From Candidatus Eiseniibacteriota bacterium (GTDB lineage: Bacteria; Eisenbacteria; RBG-16-71-46; SZUA-252), in assembly GCA_005893275.1 (NCBI GenBank), contig VBOW01000020.1, forward strand, positions 23,870-87,869: a DNA stretch of 64,000 nucleotides, in the 5' to 3' direction. Positions 16,373 to 52,090 of this stretch are shown here, in pieces. A model generated the notes under the pieces. It was not told the origin of the DNA and made no database searches. It saw only the letters and a list, made by a program, of their open reading frames with translations. A program made the translations under genes and the position numbers. Each line of letters opens with the position of its first letter. Position 1 is the first letter of the stretch.

Positions 16373-17311
16373 GTGCCGTTCCTCGGGAAGATCACCCAGG
16401 GCCTCAAGAAGACCCGCGACGTGCTCTTCGGGCAGGCGGCCGCCGTGTTCCAGCGCGGCCGCGACCTGAGCGCGGAGGACTACGAGGCGCTCGAGACGGC
16501 GCTTCTTCGCGCCGACGTCGGGCCTTCCACGACGGACAAGATCCTCGACGGGGTCAAGCGGCGGCTCCGCGACGCGTCGTTCGCGGGAGACGCGCAGGAG
16601 GCGCTGGGCGCGGAGATCGAAGGGATTCTCGCGGGGGGGAGCGATGAATTGGGTTCGGGCTCAAAGCAACGACCAGCTCCTCGCTCCCTGGACGCGACCC
16701 CCTACGTGATCCTCGTCGTCGGCGTCAACGGATCCGGGAAGACGACGAGCATCGCCAAGCTCGCGAGCCGCTTCAAGGAAGCCGGAGATTCGGTTCTTCT
16801 CGTCGCGTGTGACACCTTTCGGGCCGCGGCGGCGGATCAGCTCGAGGTCTGGGCCGCGCGGGCTCGTGTGGAAATCGTGAAGCAAAGACCGGGGGCCGAC
16901 CCCGCCGCGGTCGCCTTCGACGGAATGGCCCGCGCGAGGACCCGCGGCATCGCGCGCGTTCTGGTCGACACCGCGGGAAGGCTTCACGTGAAGGTCAATC
17001 TCATGGAAGAAGTGAAGAAGATCCGGCGCGTGATCGAGCAGCAGATTCCCGGCGCGCCGCACGAAGTGCTGCTCGTGCTCGACGCGACCACGGGGCAGAA
17101 CGGGGTGAGCCAGGCGCGCGAGTTCCATCACGCGCTCGGCGTCACGGGGCTCGTGCTCGCGAAGCTCGACGGGAGCGCGAAGGGGGGCGTGGTGCTTGCC
17201 ATCGCCGATACGCTCAAGCTTCCGATCCGCTGGGTGGGCGTGGGGGAGGGCATGGGGGATCTCGTGCCCTTCGACGCGGCCGAGTTCGCGCGGGCGCTCG
17301 TCACCCCGTAG
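16373..17311 (+). CDS. ftsY: Signal recognition particle receptor FtsY (short form without acidic A domain)
   Basis: VVGVNGSGKTTSIAKLA, DTFRAAAADQL and DTAGRLH are GTPase motifs of the SRP family. GTG at 16373 lies 11 nt after the smc stop. smc-ftsY synteny is conserved. Confidence 0.85.
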   Translation: MPFLGKITQGLKKTRDVLFGQAAAVFQRGRDLSAEDYEALETALLRADVGPSTTDKILDGVKRRLRDASFAGDAQEALGAEIEGILAGGSDELGSGSKQRPAPRSLDATPYVILVVGVNGSGKTTSIAKLASRFKEAGDSVLLVACDTFRAAAADQLEVWAARARVEIVKQRPGADPAAVAFDGMARARTRGIARVLVDTAGRLHVKVNLMEEVKKIRRVIEQQIPGAPHEVLLVLDATTGQNGVSQAREFHHALGVTGLVLAKLDGSAKGGVVLAIADTLKLPIRWVGVGEGMGDLVPFDAAEFARALVTP

Positions 17312-18791
17312 GGCTCGCGCGCCGCCCCTCGCCTACGGCACCCTCGCCGAACACCACCTGGTTTTTCCCCAGGGATTTCGCCTGGCGGAGATTGACGTTC
17401 GCCCGGTTCCAGAGCTCGTGTGAAATTTTCTCGCGTCCGCCGGCATCCAGCCCGCGCGTGCGGTCGGCGCCGAGCGAGACGTCGGCCGGGAACATGGCCC
17501 CTCCGAGGCTCATCGTGACCCGCACCGCGTTCTCACGCCCCTCCATCGTGGGGACCACGATCGCGAGGTTTTGAATCTTGAGCCTCAGCCGCTCGCAGAT
17601 GTCGCGTGCCTCCGTGGGTGTCGTCTCGGCGCTCAGGATGAGCGCGAATTCCTCGCCCCCCCATCGCGCGACCGTGTCGAAGGGTCTCACGCTCGACGCG
17701 AGCATTTGCGATACGTCGCGGAGGACGGCGTTTCCCGCCTCATAGCCGTAGAGGTCGTTCAGCTGCTTGAAATTGTCGAGATCCCCGATCACGAGCGACA
17801 TCGGCCGGCCTTCGCGATAGGCGCGGGCGATCTCGCGGTCGAGCTGGCGGCCGAAATAGGGCCGATTGTAGACGCCGGTCAGCTCGTCGATCATCACGAG
17901 CATCCCGAGCTTCTTGAGCGTGACAAGAAGGTCGGTCGCATGCTCGGCGACCACGCTCAGGAGCCCCATTCTTTCCTCGGAGAAGAATTCGGGCGTTCGG
18001 CTCCATGCCTCCAAAACATAGAGAAAGGGCGTCCCCGGCTCGCCGACCCGCGCCATCGCGAGCGAGCGAAAACCATCCGGCGGGCTCGGCTGCTCGTACG
18101 GCGCGATCGCGACGTGCATGGTCGCGTCCATCGCTTCCGCATCGATCATGACGCGCACGTATCCCGGCTTTGCCAGATCTTCGACGTAAACGGGAAGGGC
18201 GCGTCGGCCGACCCAATTCTCCGCGATCGTTCGGTTCCACGGCCCCCCCTCGCTCACCGGCTGGGCGTACCGCGTGTCGAAGCCGCGCGCCAGCGAATAG
18301 AGGCGCGTCTCGTCGCATTCGAGGATCTTCGTGGCCGAAAGCTGGATCGTGCGAAGGATATCCGCGGGGTCGGTCTGGAGGTATTCGGCATTGCGCTCGT
18401 CGCGGGTGAAGAGCTTCCGCTCCACCGCAATCAGGTGCGAGATCACCCGGTACAGAAGGCGGCTCCGGGTTTGCCAGTGGGGTTTCGAAGCGCGGACGAG
18501 TTTCTCGTCCCCCGGGGCGCGTCGTTCCGCCGCCGCAAGAAGGAAGGATTCGCCGGAGCCCGGCGTGCGGTACCGGACGTAGGCTTTCCCGTCGCGCTGA
18601 AAGCGGTCGACGCTCTCGAGAAGACCGGCCTCGATCAGCCGCTCTGCAATCTCGTAGGTGATCTCATCCCGGCGACCCGCGTCCAGGTCCCCGAGGGCGA
18701 GGTCGATCGGGCGCTTCCCTTCGAGGGGGGATTCTTCATGAAGGCGGAGCGAGGAAAAAATTGCCGTACGGATGCGCTGGGATTCGTTCAT
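17301..18791 (-). CDS. Diguanylate cyclase, GAF-like N-terminal region + GGDEF domain
   Basis: LTGVYNRPYFGRQLDREI...GDLDNFKQLNDLYGYEAGNAVL...RWGGEEFALIL has an intact GGEEF active site. Confidence 0.85.
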   Translation of the reverse strand: MNESQRIRTAIFSSLRLHEESPLEGKRPIDLALGDLDAGRRDEITYEIAERLIEAGLLESVDRFQRDGKAYVRYRTPGSGESFLLAAAERRAPGDEKLVRASKPHWQTRSRLLYRVISHLIAVERKLFTRDERNAEYLQTDPADILRTIQLSATKILECDETRLYSLARGFDTRYAQPVSEGGPWNRTIAENWVGRRALPVYVEDLAKPGYVRVMIDAEAMDATMHVAIAPYEQPSPPDGFRSLAMARVGEPGTPFLYVLEAWSRTPEFFSEERMGLLSVVAEHATDLLVTLKKLGMLVMIDELTGVYNRPYFGRQLDREIARAYREGRPMSLVIGDLDNFKQLNDLYGYEAGNAVLRDVSQMLASSVRPFDTVARWGGEEFALILSAETTPTEARDICERLRLKIQNLAIVVPTMEGRENAVRVTMSLGGAMFPADVSLGADRTRGLDAGGREKISHELWNRANVNLRQAKSLGKNQVVFGEGAVGEGRRASPTG

Positions 18792-18837: not shown

Positions 18838-18860
18838 GCTATAATCCACCTAATTATAGC
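18838..18860. promoter_or_regulatory. Inverted repeat GCTATAAT-N7-ATTATAGC (a TATAAT -10-like hexamer on both strands) in the divergent intergenic region
   Basis: Read directly: agCTATAATccacctaATTATAGc. It lies 47-69 bp upstream of the minus-strand GGDEF start, in the AT-richest stretch of the window. Confidence 0.35.
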
Positions 18861-19226
18861 ATGCATTGGCCGCTCCCAGGCCGGGGGGCATGCCCTCGGC
18901 TTCCGAATGGGCCCTCTAAGGCCTTTTTGCGGTTGATTTTGGCTCTTCGTTGTGCTAGCTTCCAACAGGTAGCCGGTTCGCCTGCCCAAAGGAAGGGTGC
19001 GCATGGCTCCAATCGGTCCAAACGATGATCGGACGGCGGTGCCTGCCGACACTCCGTCCCTGGAATTCCCCCCGCCAAAGTCCCCTTTCATTCATTCCGT
19101 CCGAAAAGAGCGCGACGTGGAATCGTCTATCGCTCGGGAGCGTTCATTATGGGTCGATCACATGGTTCCGGGGAATCCCCTCCCCAGCACGGAAACGCAC
19201 GGGCCGGAATCGCGGGGGTGGCGCCG

Positions 19227-19553
19227 ATGATGACGCTTCGCAACCGGCTGATTCGTTTCGGATTTCTCCTGGGCCTGCTGGCGGTTCTGGCGTTCGGGAC
19301 CTCCTTCGGGCCGACCCAGGCTCTAGCCAGACCGGCCGGCACGGGCGGGCCGGACGGCGAGCCCTACACCGGCGATCCAACCGGGGACGATCTGCCCAGC
19401 CCGACCCCGAAACCGCTCGCGCGCGTCGCGAAGCTCGGCGTGGAAGATACCCATGCGACGAAGGGTGCGCTCGTATTGCGCTACGGAGGGTTCGATTCGT
19501 CCAACCGCTGGAGTCTCTATTTCAGCATCTTGGTCCGCCTCGGCCTGCGCTAG
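19227..19553 (+). CDS. Hypothetical small secreted protein
   Basis: Predicted signal peptide MMTLRNRLIRFGFLLGLLAVLAFGTSFGPTQALA, then a Pro/Gly/Asp-rich region. No recognisable domain. Confidence 0.3.
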   Translation: MMTLRNRLIRFGFLLGLLAVLAFGTSFGPTQALARPAGTGGPDGEPYTGDPTGDDLPSPTPKPLARVAKLGVEDTHATKGALVLRYGGFDSSNRWSLYFSILVRLGLR

Positions 19554-19610
19554 GCGGCGAGAAGGAGCGACCGACCGGGGGGCGGGCGCAAAGCCCGCTC
19601 CCATAAGCTC

Positions 19611-21926
19611 ATGATTCACGACCACGCACACGGATTCGATGCGGCGACGCTCCAGCGGCGCCTGGACGAGCTGATCGGACACGCCCGCTTCGGCGCGGCG
19701 CTCGACCTGATCGCGGAGTTCCAGGGCCGCGGCCCGCTGCCTTCCGAGATCGAGCACCCGATCCACCTCGCGCGCTGCCGCGCCCTGCTCGGTCTCGGAA
19801 GGTGGCGCGAGGTTGCCGACCTCGCCGAGAAAAAACTCGAAGAGTTGTACGCGCTGCGTCCGGAGGACAAGAGGCCCATCCTCGAATACCACATCGCCGC
19901 GGGACGCGCGGTGTGGCGGATCGGCCGTCCATCCAGGGCCGAGGAGCACTTCCGCGCCGCCTACCATATCAGCCGCTGGGATTTCGAAGACCTCGAGGCG
20001 ATGCTTCGAAGCAGGAATCTGCTCGGCCTCTGCTTCCTCGGCGCCGGCGAGATCCAGCGCGCCGTGGGCGAGTTCGCCCGCGGCCAGCTCCAGGCACGCG
20101 GTGCCGGGCTCTACCATGAAGAGGCGAACTTCTCGCTCAACTTGAGCATCGCCCTGGCGAAGCTTGGCCGATTCGAGCAAGCGGACCAGGAGCTCTCCCG
20201 CGCGCGCTCCCTGTTTGGCGAGCGCGGGCACTCCCGGGGCAAGGTTCAGACGCGGCTTTGTCTCGGGCAGCATCTCCGCATCCGAGGGGACCTGCGCGAC
20301 GCGGAATCCCATATCCGCGGCGCGCTCTCGGAAGCGGAGGAGCACGGCTTTGAGCGCGAGCATGTCATCGCCCTCGAATACCTCGGGGACATCGCGCTCG
20401 ATCAATTCGACAACCAGGCTGCGATCGAACGCTACGACCAGGCCCTTCTGCTCGCGGAAAGGCTCGCGCCCGAAGGGGACTTGATTCCGGAGCTCTGTCG
20501 CCGGATTGCCGAGGTCCACGTTCGCATCGGCGAGCCGAATCGCGCCCTCATTACATGCGAGCGGGGCCTCCGCATCGCGCGGCGGATCAACGACCGCTTC
20601 GAGGAGGCCGCCACCTGCCGCGTCATGGCCATGGCCCATCAGATTCTCGGGCATCGGGAGCGCGCGCTCCGGGCGGCCCGGGAGGGCATCCAACTCCTGC
20701 GCAAGATCGAGGCGATGTACGAGCTGACCCGCATCCTTGTCTGGAGCGGTGAAGCGCAGCTCGCGGGAAGGGATCCCGAGGAACGCGGCGTCGCGCGCGA
20801 CCATCTCTGGGAGGCACGCAGCCTCGCGATGACGATGAACCTCGAGCGCTGGGTCGAGCGCATCGAGAAGGTGCTGGGCGTGGATCTCGAACCCGCGCCG
20901 CCCAGGCCCGCGTTCCGAGGCGTTCCCACCGACGCAATGCCCGCGGGAGCGGAGCCCGAGTGCTTCCGTTTCGGCATCGTCACGCAGGATCCAAGGATCA
21001 CCGAGCTGATCCGGATCCTCGAGCGCGCCGCCAGCAGCCGGCTGCCCATCCTCATCCTCGGCGAGAAGGGAAGCGGGCGGGAGCTTCTGGCCCGCGCCGC
21101 GCATGAGCTGGGAGACCGCAGGGACCGGCCTTTCGTCGTGGGCCGGTGCTCGACGCTTCCCGACGGCCACCTGGATGCCGACCTCTTCGGACACGATCGT
21201 GGCGGCGGGCCCGGAGCCGGCGCGCCGAGGGTGGGCCTCTTCGAAGGGGCGGACGGCGGGCTGATGTACCTGGACGAGGTGAGCGAGCTTCTCGTCGGCG
21301 CCCAGGCGAAGCTTCTTCGGGTGATCGAGATGGGCGAGCTGCGCCGCGTGGGTGCGGCGGGCGTACGCCACGTGGACGTCCGCGTGATCGCGGCTTCCAC
21401 GAAGGACCTCGGTGGTCTGGTGCGCCGGGGTCTCTTCCGGGACGACCTCTACTACCGTCTGAACGGGATCCGCCTCGAGGTTCCGCCGCTCCGCGATCGG
21501 ATCGAGGATGTGGAACTGATCGGACGGTACTTGCTGGAACGGGCCTGCGCACAGGCGAAGAAGCGCGTGGCCTTCACCGCGGACGTCTGGGCCCAGTTCC
21601 GGAGCCATACGTGGCCCGGCAACGTGGAGGAGTTGAGGGGCACCATCGACCGCGCGGTCGCGCTCGCGAGAGACGGGGACCTGATCGGAGCCGAGCTGAT
21701 CCCGCTCCGGCCCGCGCGGCGCCCGGCGCGCGTCCCGACCGGATCGCCGGAGCCCTCGCGCGGCGAGAATCGGAGTGAGCGGGAGCGGATCGTGACGGCG
21801 CTTCGAGCGCACCGCGGCAACCAGTCCGAAGCCGCCCGCAGCCTGGGCGGGATGAAGCGGACCACGCTCTTATACAAGATGAAGAAACTCGATATCCGCC
21901 CCGAGGAGTATGGCTCCACCCCTTGA
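19611..21926 (+). CDS. Transcriptional regulator: N-terminal TPR-like domain + bEBP-family AAA+ domain (degenerate GAFTGA and Walker A) + C-terminal Fis-type HTH
   Basis: AAA+ region ILILGEKGSGRELLARAAH...DLFGHDRGGGPGAGAPRVGLFEGADGGLMYLDEVSEL...RVIAASTKDL...FRDDLYYRLNGIRLEVPPLRDR. HTH QSEAARSLGGMKRTTLLYKMKKLDI. Confidence 0.8.
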   Translation: MIHDHAHGFDAATLQRRLDELIGHARFGAALDLIAEFQGRGPLPSEIEHPIHLARCRALLGLGRWREVADLAEKKLEELYALRPEDKRPILEYHIAAGRAVWRIGRPSRAEEHFRAAYHISRWDFEDLEAMLRSRNLLGLCFLGAGEIQRAVGEFARGQLQARGAGLYHEEANFSLNLSIALAKLGRFEQADQELSRARSLFGERGHSRGKVQTRLCLGQHLRIRGDLRDAESHIRGALSEAEEHGFEREHVIALEYLGDIALDQFDNQAAIERYDQALLLAERLAPEGDLIPELCRRIAEVHVRIGEPNRALITCERGLRIARRINDRFEEAATCRVMAMAHQILGHRERALRAAREGIQLLRKIEAMYELTRILVWSGEAQLAGRDPEERGVARDHLWEARSLAMTMNLERWVERIEKVLGVDLEPAPPRPAFRGVPTDAMPAGAEPECFRFGIVTQDPRITELIRILERAASSRLPILILGEKGSGRELLARAAHELGDRRDRPFVVGRCSTLPDGHLDADLFGHDRGGGPGAGAPRVGLFEGADGGLMYLDEVSELLVGAQAKLLRVIEMGELRRVGAAGVRHVDVRVIAASTKDLGGLVRRGLFRDDLYYRLNGIRLEVPPLRDRIEDVELIGRYLLERACAQAKKRVAFTADVWAQFRSHTWPGNVEELRGTIDRAVALARDGDLIGAELIPLRPARRPARVPTGSPEPSRGENRSERERIVTALRAHRGNQSEAARSLGGMKRTTLLYKMKKLDIRPEEYGSTP

Positions 21927-22059
21927 CCCTCCGGCCGTGCCCCGCCTATAATCGGGTCGTAGTCTAACCAGCCGACTTTCAATACCTTGTGGCAGCCGAG
22001 GCGGCGCGTCCGTGCCTTCTTCGGCGTGCCGATCTCCATCGACCCCCTGGGAGCGACGC

Positions 22060-22515
22060 ATGATCTCCGAGCTGATGAAGGGCCTTTCGATCACGCTGTC
22101 GCATTTTTTCAAGAAGCCGGTGACGCTCCGCTATCCCGAGGTGAGGATGGAGATGTTTCCCAGATTTCGCGGCTTGCACGAGCTTCACCGCTACGAAAAC
22201 GGGCTCGAGCGCTGCGTCTGCTGCGGGCTTTGCGCCGCGGTGTGCCCGGCCGACGCGATCTACATGGAGGCAGCGGAAAACTCGGAAACGGAGCGCTATT
22301 CGGCGGGGGAGCGTTATGCCAAGCGATACGAAATCGACATGCTGCGATGCATCTTTTGCGGATACTGCGAGGAGGCGTGTCCGGAAGACGCGATCTTCCT
22401 CGGACATAATTTCGAACTCTCCGACTACTCGCGGGATTCCTTCATCTACTCCAAGGAGCAGCTCTTAGTGCCTGTCGGCACGACCCACACTCCCGGCATC
22501 GTGCGCGGGCGCTAG
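22060..22515 (+). CDS. nuoI: NADH-quinone oxidoreductase subunit I
   Basis: Two 4Fe-4S ferredoxin motifs CVCCGLCAAVCP and CIFCGYCEEACP. The N-terminus MISELMKGLSITLSHFFKKPVTLRYPE is typical of NuoI. Confidence 0.85.
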   Translation: MISELMKGLSITLSHFFKKPVTLRYPEVRMEMFPRFRGLHELHRYENGLERCVCCGLCAAVCPADAIYMEAAENSETERYSAGERYAKRYEIDMLRCIFCGYCEEACPEDAIFLGHNFELSDYSRDSFIYSKEQLLVPVGTTHTPGIVRGR

Positions 22516-51954: not shown

Positions 51955-52090
51955 AGCAGACATCCTTCGGGGCGGGGTGAAAGTCCCCACCGGCGGTGAC
52001 AGCCCGCGAGCCAAAGGGTCGAGGACCCGGCGGCAGATCCGGCGAGATTCCGGAGCCGACAGTTACAGTCTGGATGGGAGAAGGATGGCC
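51955..52090 (+). ncRNA. FMN riboswitch (RFN element) aptamer
   Basis: P1 ATCCTTC(51962-68)...GAAGGAT(52080-86). Conserved core GGGGCGGGGTGAAAGTCCCCACCGGCGGTGACAGCCCGCGAGCC...GGCAGATCCGGCGAGATTCCGGAGCCGACAGTTACAGTCTGGATGGGAGAAGGAT. It lies directly 5' of ribD. Confidence 0.85.

What the first reader, a model, noticed from the sequence alone, without database searches (positions are those of the whole stretch)
19611..21926. TPR-AAA+-HTH regulator of the sigma54-activator family that has lost both GAFTGA and the Walker A lysine
Against NtrC-type AAA+ domains, ELFGHEKGAFTGA...RFEQADGGTLFLDE aligns gap-free to DLFGHDRGGGPGAGAPRVGLFEGADGGLMYLDE. The sigma54-contacting GAFTGA loop is therefore GGGPGA, with Phe and Thr lost. 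Walker A is GEKGSGRE (Arg in place of the canonical Lys). This predicts a sigma54-independent and possibly ATPase-impaired regulator, of the TyrR/HupR-like logic, with an N-terminal TPR sensor or scaffold domain. It is transcribed divergently from a GGDEF cyclase across an AT-rich promoter region.
Basis: partly seen in the sequence, partly recalled or inferred. Interest (0 to 1): 0.55.

Follow-up and report, generated by a model that had tools for sequence, protein, structure and literature searches.

The report
Sigma-54 activator relative, motor residues lost
This gene encodes a conserved DNA-binding regulator of the uncultured phylum Eisenbacteria that descends from sigma-54 activators but has lost, in steps, the sigma-54 contact loop and key ATP-hydrolysis residues, making it a new variant of the already known 'atypical enhancer-binding proteins'.

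Summary
ORF 19611-21926 (+) encodes a 771-aa TPR / sigma-54-type AAA+ / Fis-HTH protein. GAFTGA is replaced gap-free by GGGPGA, and the Walker A Lys is Arg.

The sensor II Arg is Glu, the 'glutamate-switch' Asn is Arg, and sensor I TN is ST. Walker B DE and both Arg fingers are kept.
- **Not an error or a pseudogene.** The protein belongs to an orthologous family present, with the same gene neighbours, in 36 Candidatus Eisenbacteria species genomes.
- **Stepwise change.** No family member has GAFTGA. An intermediate group changed sensor II and the Glu switch. Only the window's sub-clade (35/35 clusters) changed the Walker A Lys.
- **Selection.** The AAA+ domain is under strong purifying selection (dN/dS about 0.12). 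The loop tip evolves like a linker (about 0.53).
- **Intact paralogue.** The closest relatives are a canonical, GAFTGA-intact TPR activator family, also from Eisenbacteria and found on the same chromosome as one family member.
- **Gene order.** The regulator is not directly divergent from the GGDEF gene. A conserved small secreted-protein ORF (19227-19553) lies between them and is probably co-transcribed with the regulator.

Verdict: a new variant of the known sigma-54-independent 'atypical EBP' class, of moderate interest.

The parts
19611..21926 (+). Regulator ORF, 771 aa: TPR / sigma-54-type AAA+ / Fis-type HTH
   Evidence: ORF list. Pfam, NCBIfam and PDB hits. Orthologues of 64-90% identity.
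19638..20879 (+). N-terminal TPR superhelix (aa 10-423, 21 helices)
20976..21707 (+). AAA+ module: PF00158, aa 456-622, plus lid, aa 628-699
   Evidence: PF00158 164 bits, against about 192-214 bits for the six canonical TPR activators scanned. Foldseek target-normalised TM about 0.8 to NtrC1, PspF and FleQ. dN/dS 0.117.
21060..21083 (+). Walker A GEKGSGRE; Arg490 (codon 21078-21080, CGG) replaces the Lys
   Evidence: Arg in 35/35 sub-clade clusters and Lys in the other 76.
21144..21146 (+). Arg512 at the position of the PspF Asn64 'glutamate switch'
   Evidence: Arg in 35/35 of the sub-clade; in the rest His in 70, Arg in 3 and Asn in 3 of 76. Asn in the canonical paralogues.
21201..21218 (+). 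L1 loop tip GGGPGA (aa 531-536) in place of GAFTGA
   Evidence: Gap-free alignments. Variable, with indels, across the family. dN/dS about 0.53.
21273..21278 (+). Walker B Asp555-Glu556, retained
   Evidence: Glu in all 111 sequences; Asp in 110 of 111.
21438..21458 (+). Arg fingers Arg610 and Arg616 (FRDDLYYRL), retained
   Evidence: invariant in all 111 sequences.
21627..21629 (+). Glu673 at the sensor II Arg position (PspF Arg227)
   Evidence: Gln in 34 of 35 sub-clade clusters and Glu here. Arg is kept in 70 of 76 other members.
21777..21890 (+). Fis-type HTH_8 DNA-binding domain (aa 723-760)
   Evidence: Pfam E 1.8e-9. Nearly invariant in the family. dN/dS 0.068.
19227..19553 (+). Conserved small ORF (108 aa): signal peptide with ALA|RP site, invariant GDPT[GA]DDxPSPTPK motif, conserved W..Y..R...R C-terminus
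   Evidence: Found in 29 of the 37 loci examined by a motif scan; tblastn recovers it in most of the rest. It ends 53-68 nt before the regulator start. Homologues occur only in this lineage. No Pfam or NCBIfam hit.
19577..19602 (+). GC-rich hairpin between the small ORF and the regulator, with no U-tract
   Evidence: Present in all loci with different sequences. 6 of 8 pairs show compensatory changes.
18933..18961 (+). Conserved sigma-70-like promoter of the small-ORF/regulator unit: TTGATT, 17 nt, TGC-TAGCTT
   Evidence: Phylogenetic footprint in both clades. The simple consensus scan did not score it.
18969..19010 (+). Nearly invariant 42-nt non-coding element just downstream of that promoter; either an operator or a leader RNA
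   Evidence: No Rfam hit. No covariation.
17301..18791 (-). GGDEF diguanylate cyclase gene (GGEEF, with an RxxD I-site at the usual spacing); conserved TGnTATAAT -10 element at 18853-18861 on the minus strand
   Evidence: Pfam and NCBIfam. Conserved neighbour in all loci that reach that far. Promoter footprint. The I-site was read directly from the translation.

Best explanation
**What it is.** The gene encodes a functional, lineage-specific 'atypical enhancer-binding protein'. It is a transcription factor of Candidatus Eisenbacteria that arose from a canonical TPR-type sigma-54 activator. An intact paralogue family persists in the same phylum.

**How it changed.**
1. The family ancestor lost the GAFTGA sigma-54 contact.
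2. A sub-lineage then changed the sensor II Arg and the glutamate-switch residue.
3. The window's clade finally changed the Walker A Lys to Arg.

**How it most likely works (inferred).**
- It no longer remodels sigma-54 RNA polymerase and no longer hydrolyses ATP efficiently.
- The AAA+ domain is kept as an oligomerisation and possibly nucleotide-binding scaffold. Walker B, the Arg fingers and the fold are retained.
- The very conserved TPR superhelix receives the input, from a protein, peptide or small-molecule partner.
- The Fis-type HTH binds DNA to activate or repress sigma-70-type promoters, as TyrR, VpsR, NtrX and the NtrC proteins of Rhodobacter and Caulobacter do.
- It is probably co-transcribed with a small secreted protein from a sigma-70-like promoter, next to a diguanylate cyclase gene.

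**Status of the steps.** Shown: the anatomy, the residue changes, their order, the selection pattern, the synteny and the paralogue. Inferred: sigma-54 independence, loss of ATPase activity, the type of target promoter, and the nature of the input.
For: - **Motif changes.** Gap-free alignments to solved bEBPs and to PspF.
- **Family-wide pattern (111 sequences).** No GAFTGA anywhere. Lys to Arg, Asn64 to Arg and Arg227 to Gln/Glu are correlated in 35/35 clusters. The other 76 clusters all keep the Walker A Lys; 70 of them keep the sensor II Arg and have His at the switch position.
- **Intermediate state.** L010 has the Lys kept, the switch position Arg and sensor II Gln. The Arg codons are two steps from AAG.
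- **Selection in the sub-clade (dN/dS).** TPR 0.085, AAA+ 0.117, HTH 0.068, against 0.53 for the L1 tip and 0.25-0.33 for linkers.
- **Fold.** The AAA+ fold is retained.
- **Descent.** The closest relative among 1.84 billion representative proteins is a full-length TPR activator with all motifs intact. That paralogue family carries Eisenbacteria names. All 114 of its sequences have G[AS]FTGA. One member sits on the same 3.12-Mb chromosome as family member P0046.
- **Conservation of the locus.** Synteny in 36 species genomes.
- **Promoters.** The three conserved promoters around the gene are of -35/-10 type. Sigma-54-type sites in the window are at chance level, 13 against 13.2 expected, with none perfect.
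- **Precedent.** GAFTGA-defective EBP homologues act with sigma-70, and some without ATPase activity (PMC3162934; PMC6158489; bioRxiv 10.1101/2023.06.06.543975).
Against: - No biochemical or genetic data exist for any member; the organism is uncultured.
- Walker B DE, both Arg fingers and the Glu97/Arg131 equivalents are invariant. Some nucleotide-dependent activity, even slow hydrolysis, cannot be excluded. Lys-to-Arg changes in P-loops often keep nucleotide binding.
- Targets are unknown. The sigma-70-like promoters seen are those of the neighbouring genes, not proven targets.
- rpoN itself was not located in any Eisenbacteria genome.
- The AAA+ alpha/beta subdomain of the model has only moderate confidence (pLDDT 50-80).
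Confidence: 0.65

Rival explanations
1. c-di-GMP-responsive regulator of the FleQ/VpsR type. The degenerate nucleotide pocket or its surroundings bind c-di-GMP made by the conserved neighbouring GGDEF cyclase, and this switches DNA binding or oligomerisation. This reading is compatible with the best explanation and specifies the input.
For: - The GGDEF gene, with GGEEF and an RxxD I-site, is a conserved neighbour in every locus that reaches that far.
- The equivalents of the post-Walker-A Arg (FleQ R185) and of FleQ R334 are present: R495 in 111 of 111 sequences, and the R334 equivalent in 84 of 111.
- An invariant family-specific Arg453 in CFRFGIVTQ resembles the FleQ LFRSLVGTS 'R-switch'. 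The canonical paralogue has Leu there.
Against: - The FleQ N186 and E330 equivalents are Ala and Tyr/His.
- The R185 and R334 equivalents are common in ordinary bEBPs (80 and 38 of about 140 generic sequences).
- The LFRS match needs a one-residue register shift.
- The whole 14-kb region is syntenic, so adjacency alone is weak evidence of functional linkage.
Confidence: 0.2
2. Peptide- or protein-sensing module. The co-transcribed small secreted protein, or a fragment of it, is the ligand of the TPR domain. The logic would resemble the RRNPP quorum-sensing regulators (PlcR-PapR, NprR-NprX, Rap-Phr).
For: - The small ORF with a signal peptide is conserved across the lineage and lies 53-68 nt upstream of the regulator. 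It carries an invariant 14-residue motif.
- A covarying hairpin between the two genes would allow unequal expression.
- The TPR domain is the most conserved part of the protein.
Against: - TPR structural matches are generic; TONSOKU, APC5 and MalT score as well or better.
- No import or processing system was identified.
- The mature small protein is about 75 aa, far larger than RRNPP peptides.
- RRNPP systems are known only from Firmicutes and their mobile elements, and use other HTH types.
- No interaction was tested.
Confidence: 0.1
3. Non-catalytic partner subunit. The protein forms mixed rings with the canonical TPR activator paralogue. It donates its Arg fingers but does not hydrolyse ATP or touch sigma-54, and so tunes or poisons sigma-54 activation, as in HrpR/HrpS or the degenerate subunits of RFC and ORC.
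For: - A canonical paralogue lies in the same genome.
- The trans-acting Arg fingers and Walker B are retained, while the cis-acting Walker A Lys and sensor II Arg are lost.
Against: - The paralogues are only 39% identical.
- The family keeps its own highly conserved HTH and TPR domains.
- The earlier, Lys-containing members already lack GAFTGA.
- No co-localisation of the two genes was seen; they lie about 1.9 Mb apart on the chromosome.
Confidence: 0.05
4. Still a sigma-54 activator that uses a non-canonical loop. Alternatively, a decaying pseudogene.
For: - The PF00158 match is strong, and annotation pipelines name the protein 'sigma 54-interacting'.
- L2 and the Glu97/Arg131 equivalents are retained.
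Against: - The loop tip lacks Phe and Thr in all 111 sequences and varies in sequence and length. Those residues are needed for activation (PMC3162934).
- A pseudogene is excluded. The ORF was intact in all 27 genomes from which a full-length gene could be extracted, and dN/dS is about 0.1 over all three domains.
Confidence: 0.03

Closest known systems
Atypical (sigma-54-independent) EBPs: E. coli TyrR, DhaR; R. capsulatus HupR and NtrC; Caulobacter NtrC; Brucella NtrX; P. putida PhhR; M. xanthus HsfA
   Same: PF00158 AAA+ domain plus a C-terminal HTH. GAFTGA is defective. Some have non-consensus Walker motifs. They act at sigma-70 promoters, and several do not need ATP hydrolysis (PMC3162934, PMC6158489, 10.1101/2023.06.06.543975).
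   Different: Several of those proteins lost GAFTGA by deletion; here the loop keeps its full length and is substituted. Their sensor domains are REC, ACT/PAS or GAF, not TPR. The combined replacement of the Walker A Lys, the sensor II Arg and the Glu-switch Asn, with Walker B intact, did not appear in the papers read here. The phylum is different.
Vibrio cholerae VpsR
   Different: VpsR is degenerate in Walker B (ND for DE) and has a REC domain. Here Walker B is intact, Walker A and sensor II are changed, and the N-terminus is TPR. c-di-GMP binding is untested here.
P. aeruginosa FleQ
   Same: AAA+ plus HTH. c-di-GMP binds near Walker A. It works at both sigma-54 and sigma-70 promoters. The AAA+ domains are about 37% identical.
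   Different: FleQ keeps GAFTGA and its ATPase activity. Only some of its c-di-GMP-contacting residues have equivalents here.
Canonical TPR / Sigma54_activat / HTH_8 activators, including the Eisenbacteria paralogue family (P0121, P0326)
   Same: The same three-domain architecture over the full length. 39% identity and E 4.5e-145 for P0121.
   Different: They keep GAFTGA, the Walker A Lys, Asn64, sensor I TN and the sensor II Arg. PF00158 scores for the six scanned are about 192-214 bits, against 164 here. No experimentally characterised member was found in the literature searches made.
RRNPP regulators (PlcR, NprR, Rap, AimR)
   Different: RRNPP proteins have no AAA+ domain and use another HTH type. 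Their peptides are short and re-imported. They are known from Firmicutes only. The resemblance here is one of gene arrangement only.

Membership tests
Bacterial enhancer-binding proteins (sigma-54 activators, PF00158) | Sigma54_activat AAA+ domain and fold | tested here: met
   PF00158 E 2.7e-48 over model positions 1-167 of 168. Foldseek target-normalised TM about 0.8 to NtrC1, PspF and FleQ.
Bacterial enhancer-binding proteins (sigma-54 activators, PF00158) | GAFTGA (G[AS][FY][TS]GA) L1 loop that contacts sigma-54 | tested here: not met
   GGGPGA here. Absent in all 111 family sequences.
Bacterial enhancer-binding proteins (sigma-54 activators, PF00158) | Walker A GxxGxGK(E) | tested here: not met
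   GEKGSGRE. Arg in 35/35 clusters of the sub-clade.
Bacterial enhancer-binding proteins (sigma-54 activators, PF00158) | Walker B DE and trans-acting Arg fingers | tested here: met
   Asp555-Glu556, Arg610 and Arg616.
Bacterial enhancer-binding proteins (sigma-54 activators, PF00158) | Sensor II Arg, glutamate-switch Asn, sensor I Thr-Asn | tested here: not met
   Glu673, Arg512 and Ser-Thr respectively.
Bacterial enhancer-binding proteins (sigma-54 activators, PF00158) | C-terminal Fis-type HTH | tested here: met
   HTH_8, aa 723-760.
Bacterial enhancer-binding proteins (sigma-54 activators, PF00158) | Acts on -24/-12 promoters with sigma-54 RNA polymerase; rpoN in the genome | tested here: inconclusive
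   No sigma-54-type site above chance in the window. rpoN was not located. Canonical activator paralogues and one perfect -24/-12 core in an Eisenbacteria chromosome suggest that sigma-54 exists in the phylum.
Atypical, sigma-54-independent EBPs (TyrR, HupR, NtrX, VpsR class) | PF00158 homologue with a defective or absent GAFTGA and a retained DNA-binding domain | tested here: met
Atypical, sigma-54-independent EBPs (TyrR, HupR, NtrX, VpsR class) | Regulates sigma-70-dependent promoters; ATP hydrolysis dispensable | not testable with these tools
   Only indirect evidence: conserved -35/-10 promoters flank the gene, and catalytic residues are replaced.
c-di-GMP-binding EBPs (FleQ type) | R144 (LFRS), R185, N186, E330 and R334 contacts | tested here: inconclusive
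   The R185 and R334 equivalents are present but are generic among bEBPs. N186 is Ala and E330 is Tyr. The candidate R144 equivalent (Arg453) needs a register shift.
RRNPP peptide-sensing regulators | TPR sensor, adjacent small secreted precursor, XRE-type HTH or phosphatase output, Firmicutes host | tested here: not met
   The TPR domain and the adjacent secreted ORF are present. The output is AAA+ plus a Fis-type HTH, the host is Eisenbacteria, and the precursor is about 108 aa.

The most novel reading that the evidence does not exclude
The conserved trio forms a new kind of signalling module in a candidate phylum. The trio is a diguanylate cyclase gene, a small secreted protein with an invariant GDPTxDDxPSPTPK motif, and a cytoplasmic TPR regulator built on an ATPase-dead sigma-54-activator chassis. 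In this reading the secreted product, or c-di-GMP, is sensed by the TPR or pseudo-AAA+ domains and read out at sigma-70 promoters. That would be an RRNPP-like or VpsR-like logic, evolved independently from an enhancer-binding protein.
Probability: 0.1. Interest if true: 0.7.

Novelty: new variant of a known kind. Interest (0 to 1): 0.4.

Why it matters
Sigma-54 activators that have become sigma-70 regulators are a small, scattered class. They are thought to show how the two modes of transcription activation are linked.

This family offers a natural series within one phylum:
- an intact TPR activator paralogue;
- orthologues that lost only the sigma-54 contact;
- intermediates that also lost sensor II;
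- a clade that additionally replaced the Walker A lysine.

All of these are under purifying selection. The series therefore makes a question directly testable: which AAA+ functions (nucleotide binding, ring formation, hydrolysis) are still needed once sigma-54 remodelling is abandoned?

There is also a practical point. Annotation pipelines label all these proteins 'sigma 54-interacting', which is probably wrong for the whole family.

Tried and rejected
1. **Second GAFTGA, another bEBP, or an RpoN box.** A six-frame scan of the window found none.
2. **Sigma-54 promoters in the window.** Counts were at chance level.
3. **Rfam.** On the whole window it found only an unrelated FMN riboswitch. On the 1-kb upstream region it found nothing credible.
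4. **The invariant 42-nt leader element as a structured RNA.** There were no compensatory changes, and the leader folds no better than shuffled sequences (z +1.25). It could not be assigned as RNA or as an operator.
5. **Further copies of that element in the window.** None.
6. **The simple sigma-70 consensus scanner.** It scored nothing in the intergenic region. The promoters reported here rest on phylogenetic footprints instead.
7. **FleQ c-di-GMP residues.** Inconclusive.
8. **Pfam and NCBIfam for the small ORF.** No family.
9. **Literature search for Eisenbacteria plus rpoN.** No papers.
11. **Pseudogene and sequencing-error explanations.** Rejected.
Full report
**1. Observation**

ORF 19611..21926 on the + strand encodes 771 aa. 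Pfam finds TPR repeats over roughly aa 50-380. It also finds a full-length Sigma54_activat domain (PF00158, aa 456-622, model positions 1-167 of 168, E 2.7e-48), the AAA+ lid (aa 628-699) and a Fis-type HTH_8 (aa 723-760). NCBIfam hits NifA, RtcR, NorR, AtoC, NtrC, TyrR and others, all far below their family cut-offs. The protein is therefore a bEBP homologue but not a member of any curated equivalog.

HMMER alignments to the solved structures of NifA, ZraR and NtrC1 run without gaps from Walker A to Walker B. They put GGGPGA (aa 531-536) opposite GAFTGA and GEKGSGRE opposite GESGTGKE. No other GAFTGA-like motif, bEBP or RpoN box occurs in any frame of the window.

**2.

I aligned the family with E. 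coli PspF. I checked it by hand-numbering it against the published positions of K42, N64, F85, T86, D107, E108, T148, R162, R168 and R227, and it aligned to the family as expected. The results are:

| PspF position | Role | In the window protein |
|---|---|---|
| K42 | Walker A | Arg490 |
| N64 | 'glutamate switch' | Arg512 |
| T148-N149 | sensor I | Ser-Thr |
| R227 | sensor II | Glu673 |
| D107-E108 | Walker B | retained |
| R162, R168 | Arg fingers | retained |
| E97, R131 | L1/L2 coupling | retained |

It is established knowledge of P-loop and AAA+ enzymes that the Walker A Lys and the sensor II Arg contact the beta- and gamma-phosphates. Lys-to-Arg changes typically abolish hydrolysis but may keep binding (RecA K72R is the classic case). 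This is inference here, not a test.

**3. A conserved family, not an accident**

A search of 5.8 billion proteins returns more than 110 full-length orthologues of 64-90% identity. Where named, nearly all are from Candidatus Eisenbacteria MAGs. A scan of one genome per GTDB species finds the gene in 36 genomes. Most are labelled Eisenbacteria; the few other labels are probably binning errors.

None of the 111 aligned sequences has GAFTGA. The loop tip is Gly/Pro/Ser-rich, differs between species, and carries 1-3-residue indels. The remaining changes split the family:

| Position | Window's sub-clade (35 clusters, ≥79% identity to the query) | Other members (76 clusters) |
|---|---|---|
| Walker A | Arg, 35/35 | Lys, 76/76 |
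| Glu switch | Arg, 35/35 | His in 70 |
| Sensor II | Gln in 34, Glu in the query | Arg in 70 |

Codons show that the Walker A Arg is old. It is CGC or CGG in all ten sub-clade genomes examined (the window's included), against AAG in every other genome. Locus L010 (80% identity) is an intermediate: Lys is kept, the switch position is Arg and sensor II is Gln. Three other loci (L032, L022, L023) lost the sensor II Arg independently.

The order of events is therefore:
1. GAFTGA lost.
2. Sensor II and the Glu switch changed.
3. Walker A Lys changed.

**4. Selection**

Pairwise Nei-Gojobori estimates on codon alignments of ten genomes of the sub-clade (the window's and nine others) give these median dN/dS values:

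| Region | dN/dS |
|---|---|
| TPR domain | 0.085 |
| AAA+ module | 0.117 |
| HTH | 0.068 |
| L1 tip | 0.53 |
| Inter-domain linkers | 0.25-0.33 |

The AAA+ domain is thus still needed, but the former sigma-54 contact is nearly free to drift. A pseudogene is excluded.

**5. Structure**

AlphaFold with a 60-sequence family alignment gives mean pLDDT 81.5. The TPR superhelix (aa 10-423, 21 helices) has pLDDT about 95. The lid and HTH score about 87-92. The alpha/beta subdomain scores 50-80, with low values at the L1 tip.

These matches are generic for TPR arrays.

**6. Origin, and the rpoN question**

An exhaustive HMMER search of 1.84 billion cluster representatives collapses the family into one 50% cluster. 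The next hit is P0121 (760 aa, 39% identity over the full length, E 4.5e-145). After it come many other TPR / PF00158 / HTH_8 proteins. Nearly all of those with an alignable AAA+ domain have an intact GAFTGA-type loop and the Walker A Lys, and most keep the other catalytic residues. The TPR-activator architecture is therefore common and canonical, and the window's family is a degenerate offshoot.

A homologue search with P0121 shows that its family is also from Eisenbacteria (P0308, P0410, P0413 and P0414 carry that name). All 114 of its sequences carry G[AS]FTGA.

The two genes are about 1.9 Mb apart.

About 4.8 kb from P0326 lies a perfect TGGCAC-N5-TTGC core. It sits in an intergenic region 60 nt upstream of a small lipoprotein-like ORF, and 0.05 such sites are expected per locus.

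I could not search for rpoN itself. These data nevertheless make it likely that Eisenbacteria use sigma-54. The family would then have lost GAFTGA after a duplication, not because sigma-54 was missing. This evidence comes from a Lys-clade genome. The Arg-clade genome of the window was not checked.

**7. Genomic context**

In every locus that is long enough, the gene order is: FtsY (+), GGDEF (-), small ORF (+), regulator (+), NuoI-like ferredoxin, ZIP, NuoB, NuoD, NuoF, NuoG. Its features are:
- an N-terminal signal peptide with an A-x-A|[RK]-P site;
- an invariant GDPT[GA]DDxPSPTPK motif;
- a variable linker;
- a conserved W..Y..R...R C-terminus.

It ends 53-68 nt before the regulator ATG. 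It has homologues only in this lineage and no family assignment. A GC-rich hairpin without a U-tract sits between the two genes. Its sequence differs between species, but 6 of 8 pairs show compensatory changes.

Phylogenetic footprinting shows three things:
- a conserved TTG(A/C)AT-N17-TGnTAnnnT promoter upstream of the small ORF (window 18933-18961);
- a TGnTATAAT element for the GGDEF gene on the other strand (18853-18861);
- a TTGACC-N17-TATAAT/TATACT promoter for the nuoI-like gene just after the regulator stop.

All three are of sigma-70 type.

Directly after the first promoter lies a 42-nt element (18969-19010). It is almost invariant across both clades, is non-coding (it carries 2-nt indels), is unique in the window, has no Rfam match, and shows no covariation. 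It could be the regulator's own operator or a leader RNA motif. I could not decide which.

**8. Comparison with what is known**

GAFTGA-defective EBP homologues are an established, small class. Francke et al. list TyrR, DhaR, HupR, VpsR and YplP. They found about 110 such proteins among about 5000 homologues, with a preference for Thr-to-Pro at loop position 4, which is exactly what is seen here (PMC3162934). Hsieh et al. list TyrR, HupR, HsfA, PhhR and NtrX. They show that VpsR lacks GAFTGA, has a degenerate Walker B, has no ATPase activity, and activates sigma-70 RNA polymerase with c-di-GMP (PMC6158489). Caulobacter and Rhodobacter NtrC lack the loop by deletion (bioRxiv 10.1101/2023.06.06.543975).

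The present protein fits this class in logic. It differs in four ways:
- it has a TPR input domain;
- the full-length loop is substituted, not deleted;
- the set of catalytic residues replaced is particular (Walker A Lys, sensor II, Glu switch, with Walker B intact);
- the degeneration is stepwise and resolved by phylogeny, alongside an intact paralogue.

A FleQ/VpsR-like c-di-GMP input is suggested by the conserved cyclase neighbour and some Arg residues, but the residue test is inconclusive (the FleQ sequence was verified against the PDB).

**9. Verdict**

The divergent-promoter detail needs correction.

The finding is a new variant of a known kind, of moderate interest. It is a useful natural series for asking what an AAA+ domain does after it stops being a sigma-54 motor. 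It also flags a systematic mis-annotation. It is not a new category of system.

Noticed in passing
window 51959..52089 (+): FMN riboswitch (RF00050), 116.7 bits, covering the full model. It is unrelated to the finding.
   Followed up: no
window 18969..19010 (+): A 42-nt non-coding element, GTAGCCGGTTCGCCTGCCCAAAGGAAGGGTGCGCATGGCTCC. It is nearly invariant in 35 Eisenbacteria loci and starts about 8 nt after a conserved sigma-70-like -10 element. It has no Rfam hit and no covariation, and is unique in the window. It may be an operator or a leader RNA; a possible hairpin loop carries GGA.
   Followed up: partly
window 19577..19602 (+): A GC-rich hairpin between the small ORF and the regulator, 8-12 nt before the regulator ATG. 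It is conserved in position but not in sequence, and 6 of 8 pairs show compensatory changes. It has no U-tract, so it is not a canonical terminator.
   Followed up: partly
window 19227..19553 (+): A lineage-restricted small secreted protein with an invariant GDPT[GA]DDxPSPTPK motif and a conserved Arg- and aromatic-rich C-terminus. It has no known family.
   Followed up: partly
L040 5176..5190 (+) and L040 10001..11971: In a complete Eisenbacteria chromosome, a perfect sigma-54 core promoter (TGGCAC-N5-TTGC) lies 60 nt upstream of a 65-aa lipoprotein-like ORF. It is 4.8 kb from a canonical GAFTGA-bearing TPR activator, which sits next to a Ser/Thr kinase-AAA_16-TPR gene.
   Followed up: partly
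window 21927..22100 and the equivalent region in loci L003-L035: A conserved TTGACC-N17-TATAAT/TATACT promoter for the nuoI-like ferredoxin, ZIP and nuoBDFG genes begins immediately after the regulator stop. A ZIP metal transporter is embedded between the nuoI-like gene and nuoB in all genomes.
   Followed up: no
loci L010, L011, L019, L020, L024, L026, L030, L031: Contigs that carry this Eisenbacteria-specific syntenic block are deposited under other phylum names (Latescibacterota, Binatia, Hyphomicrobiales, Bacteroidota, Limnocylindrales, Acidobacteriota, Dormiibacterota, Omnitrophota). Binning or labelling errors are the likely cause.
   Followed up: no
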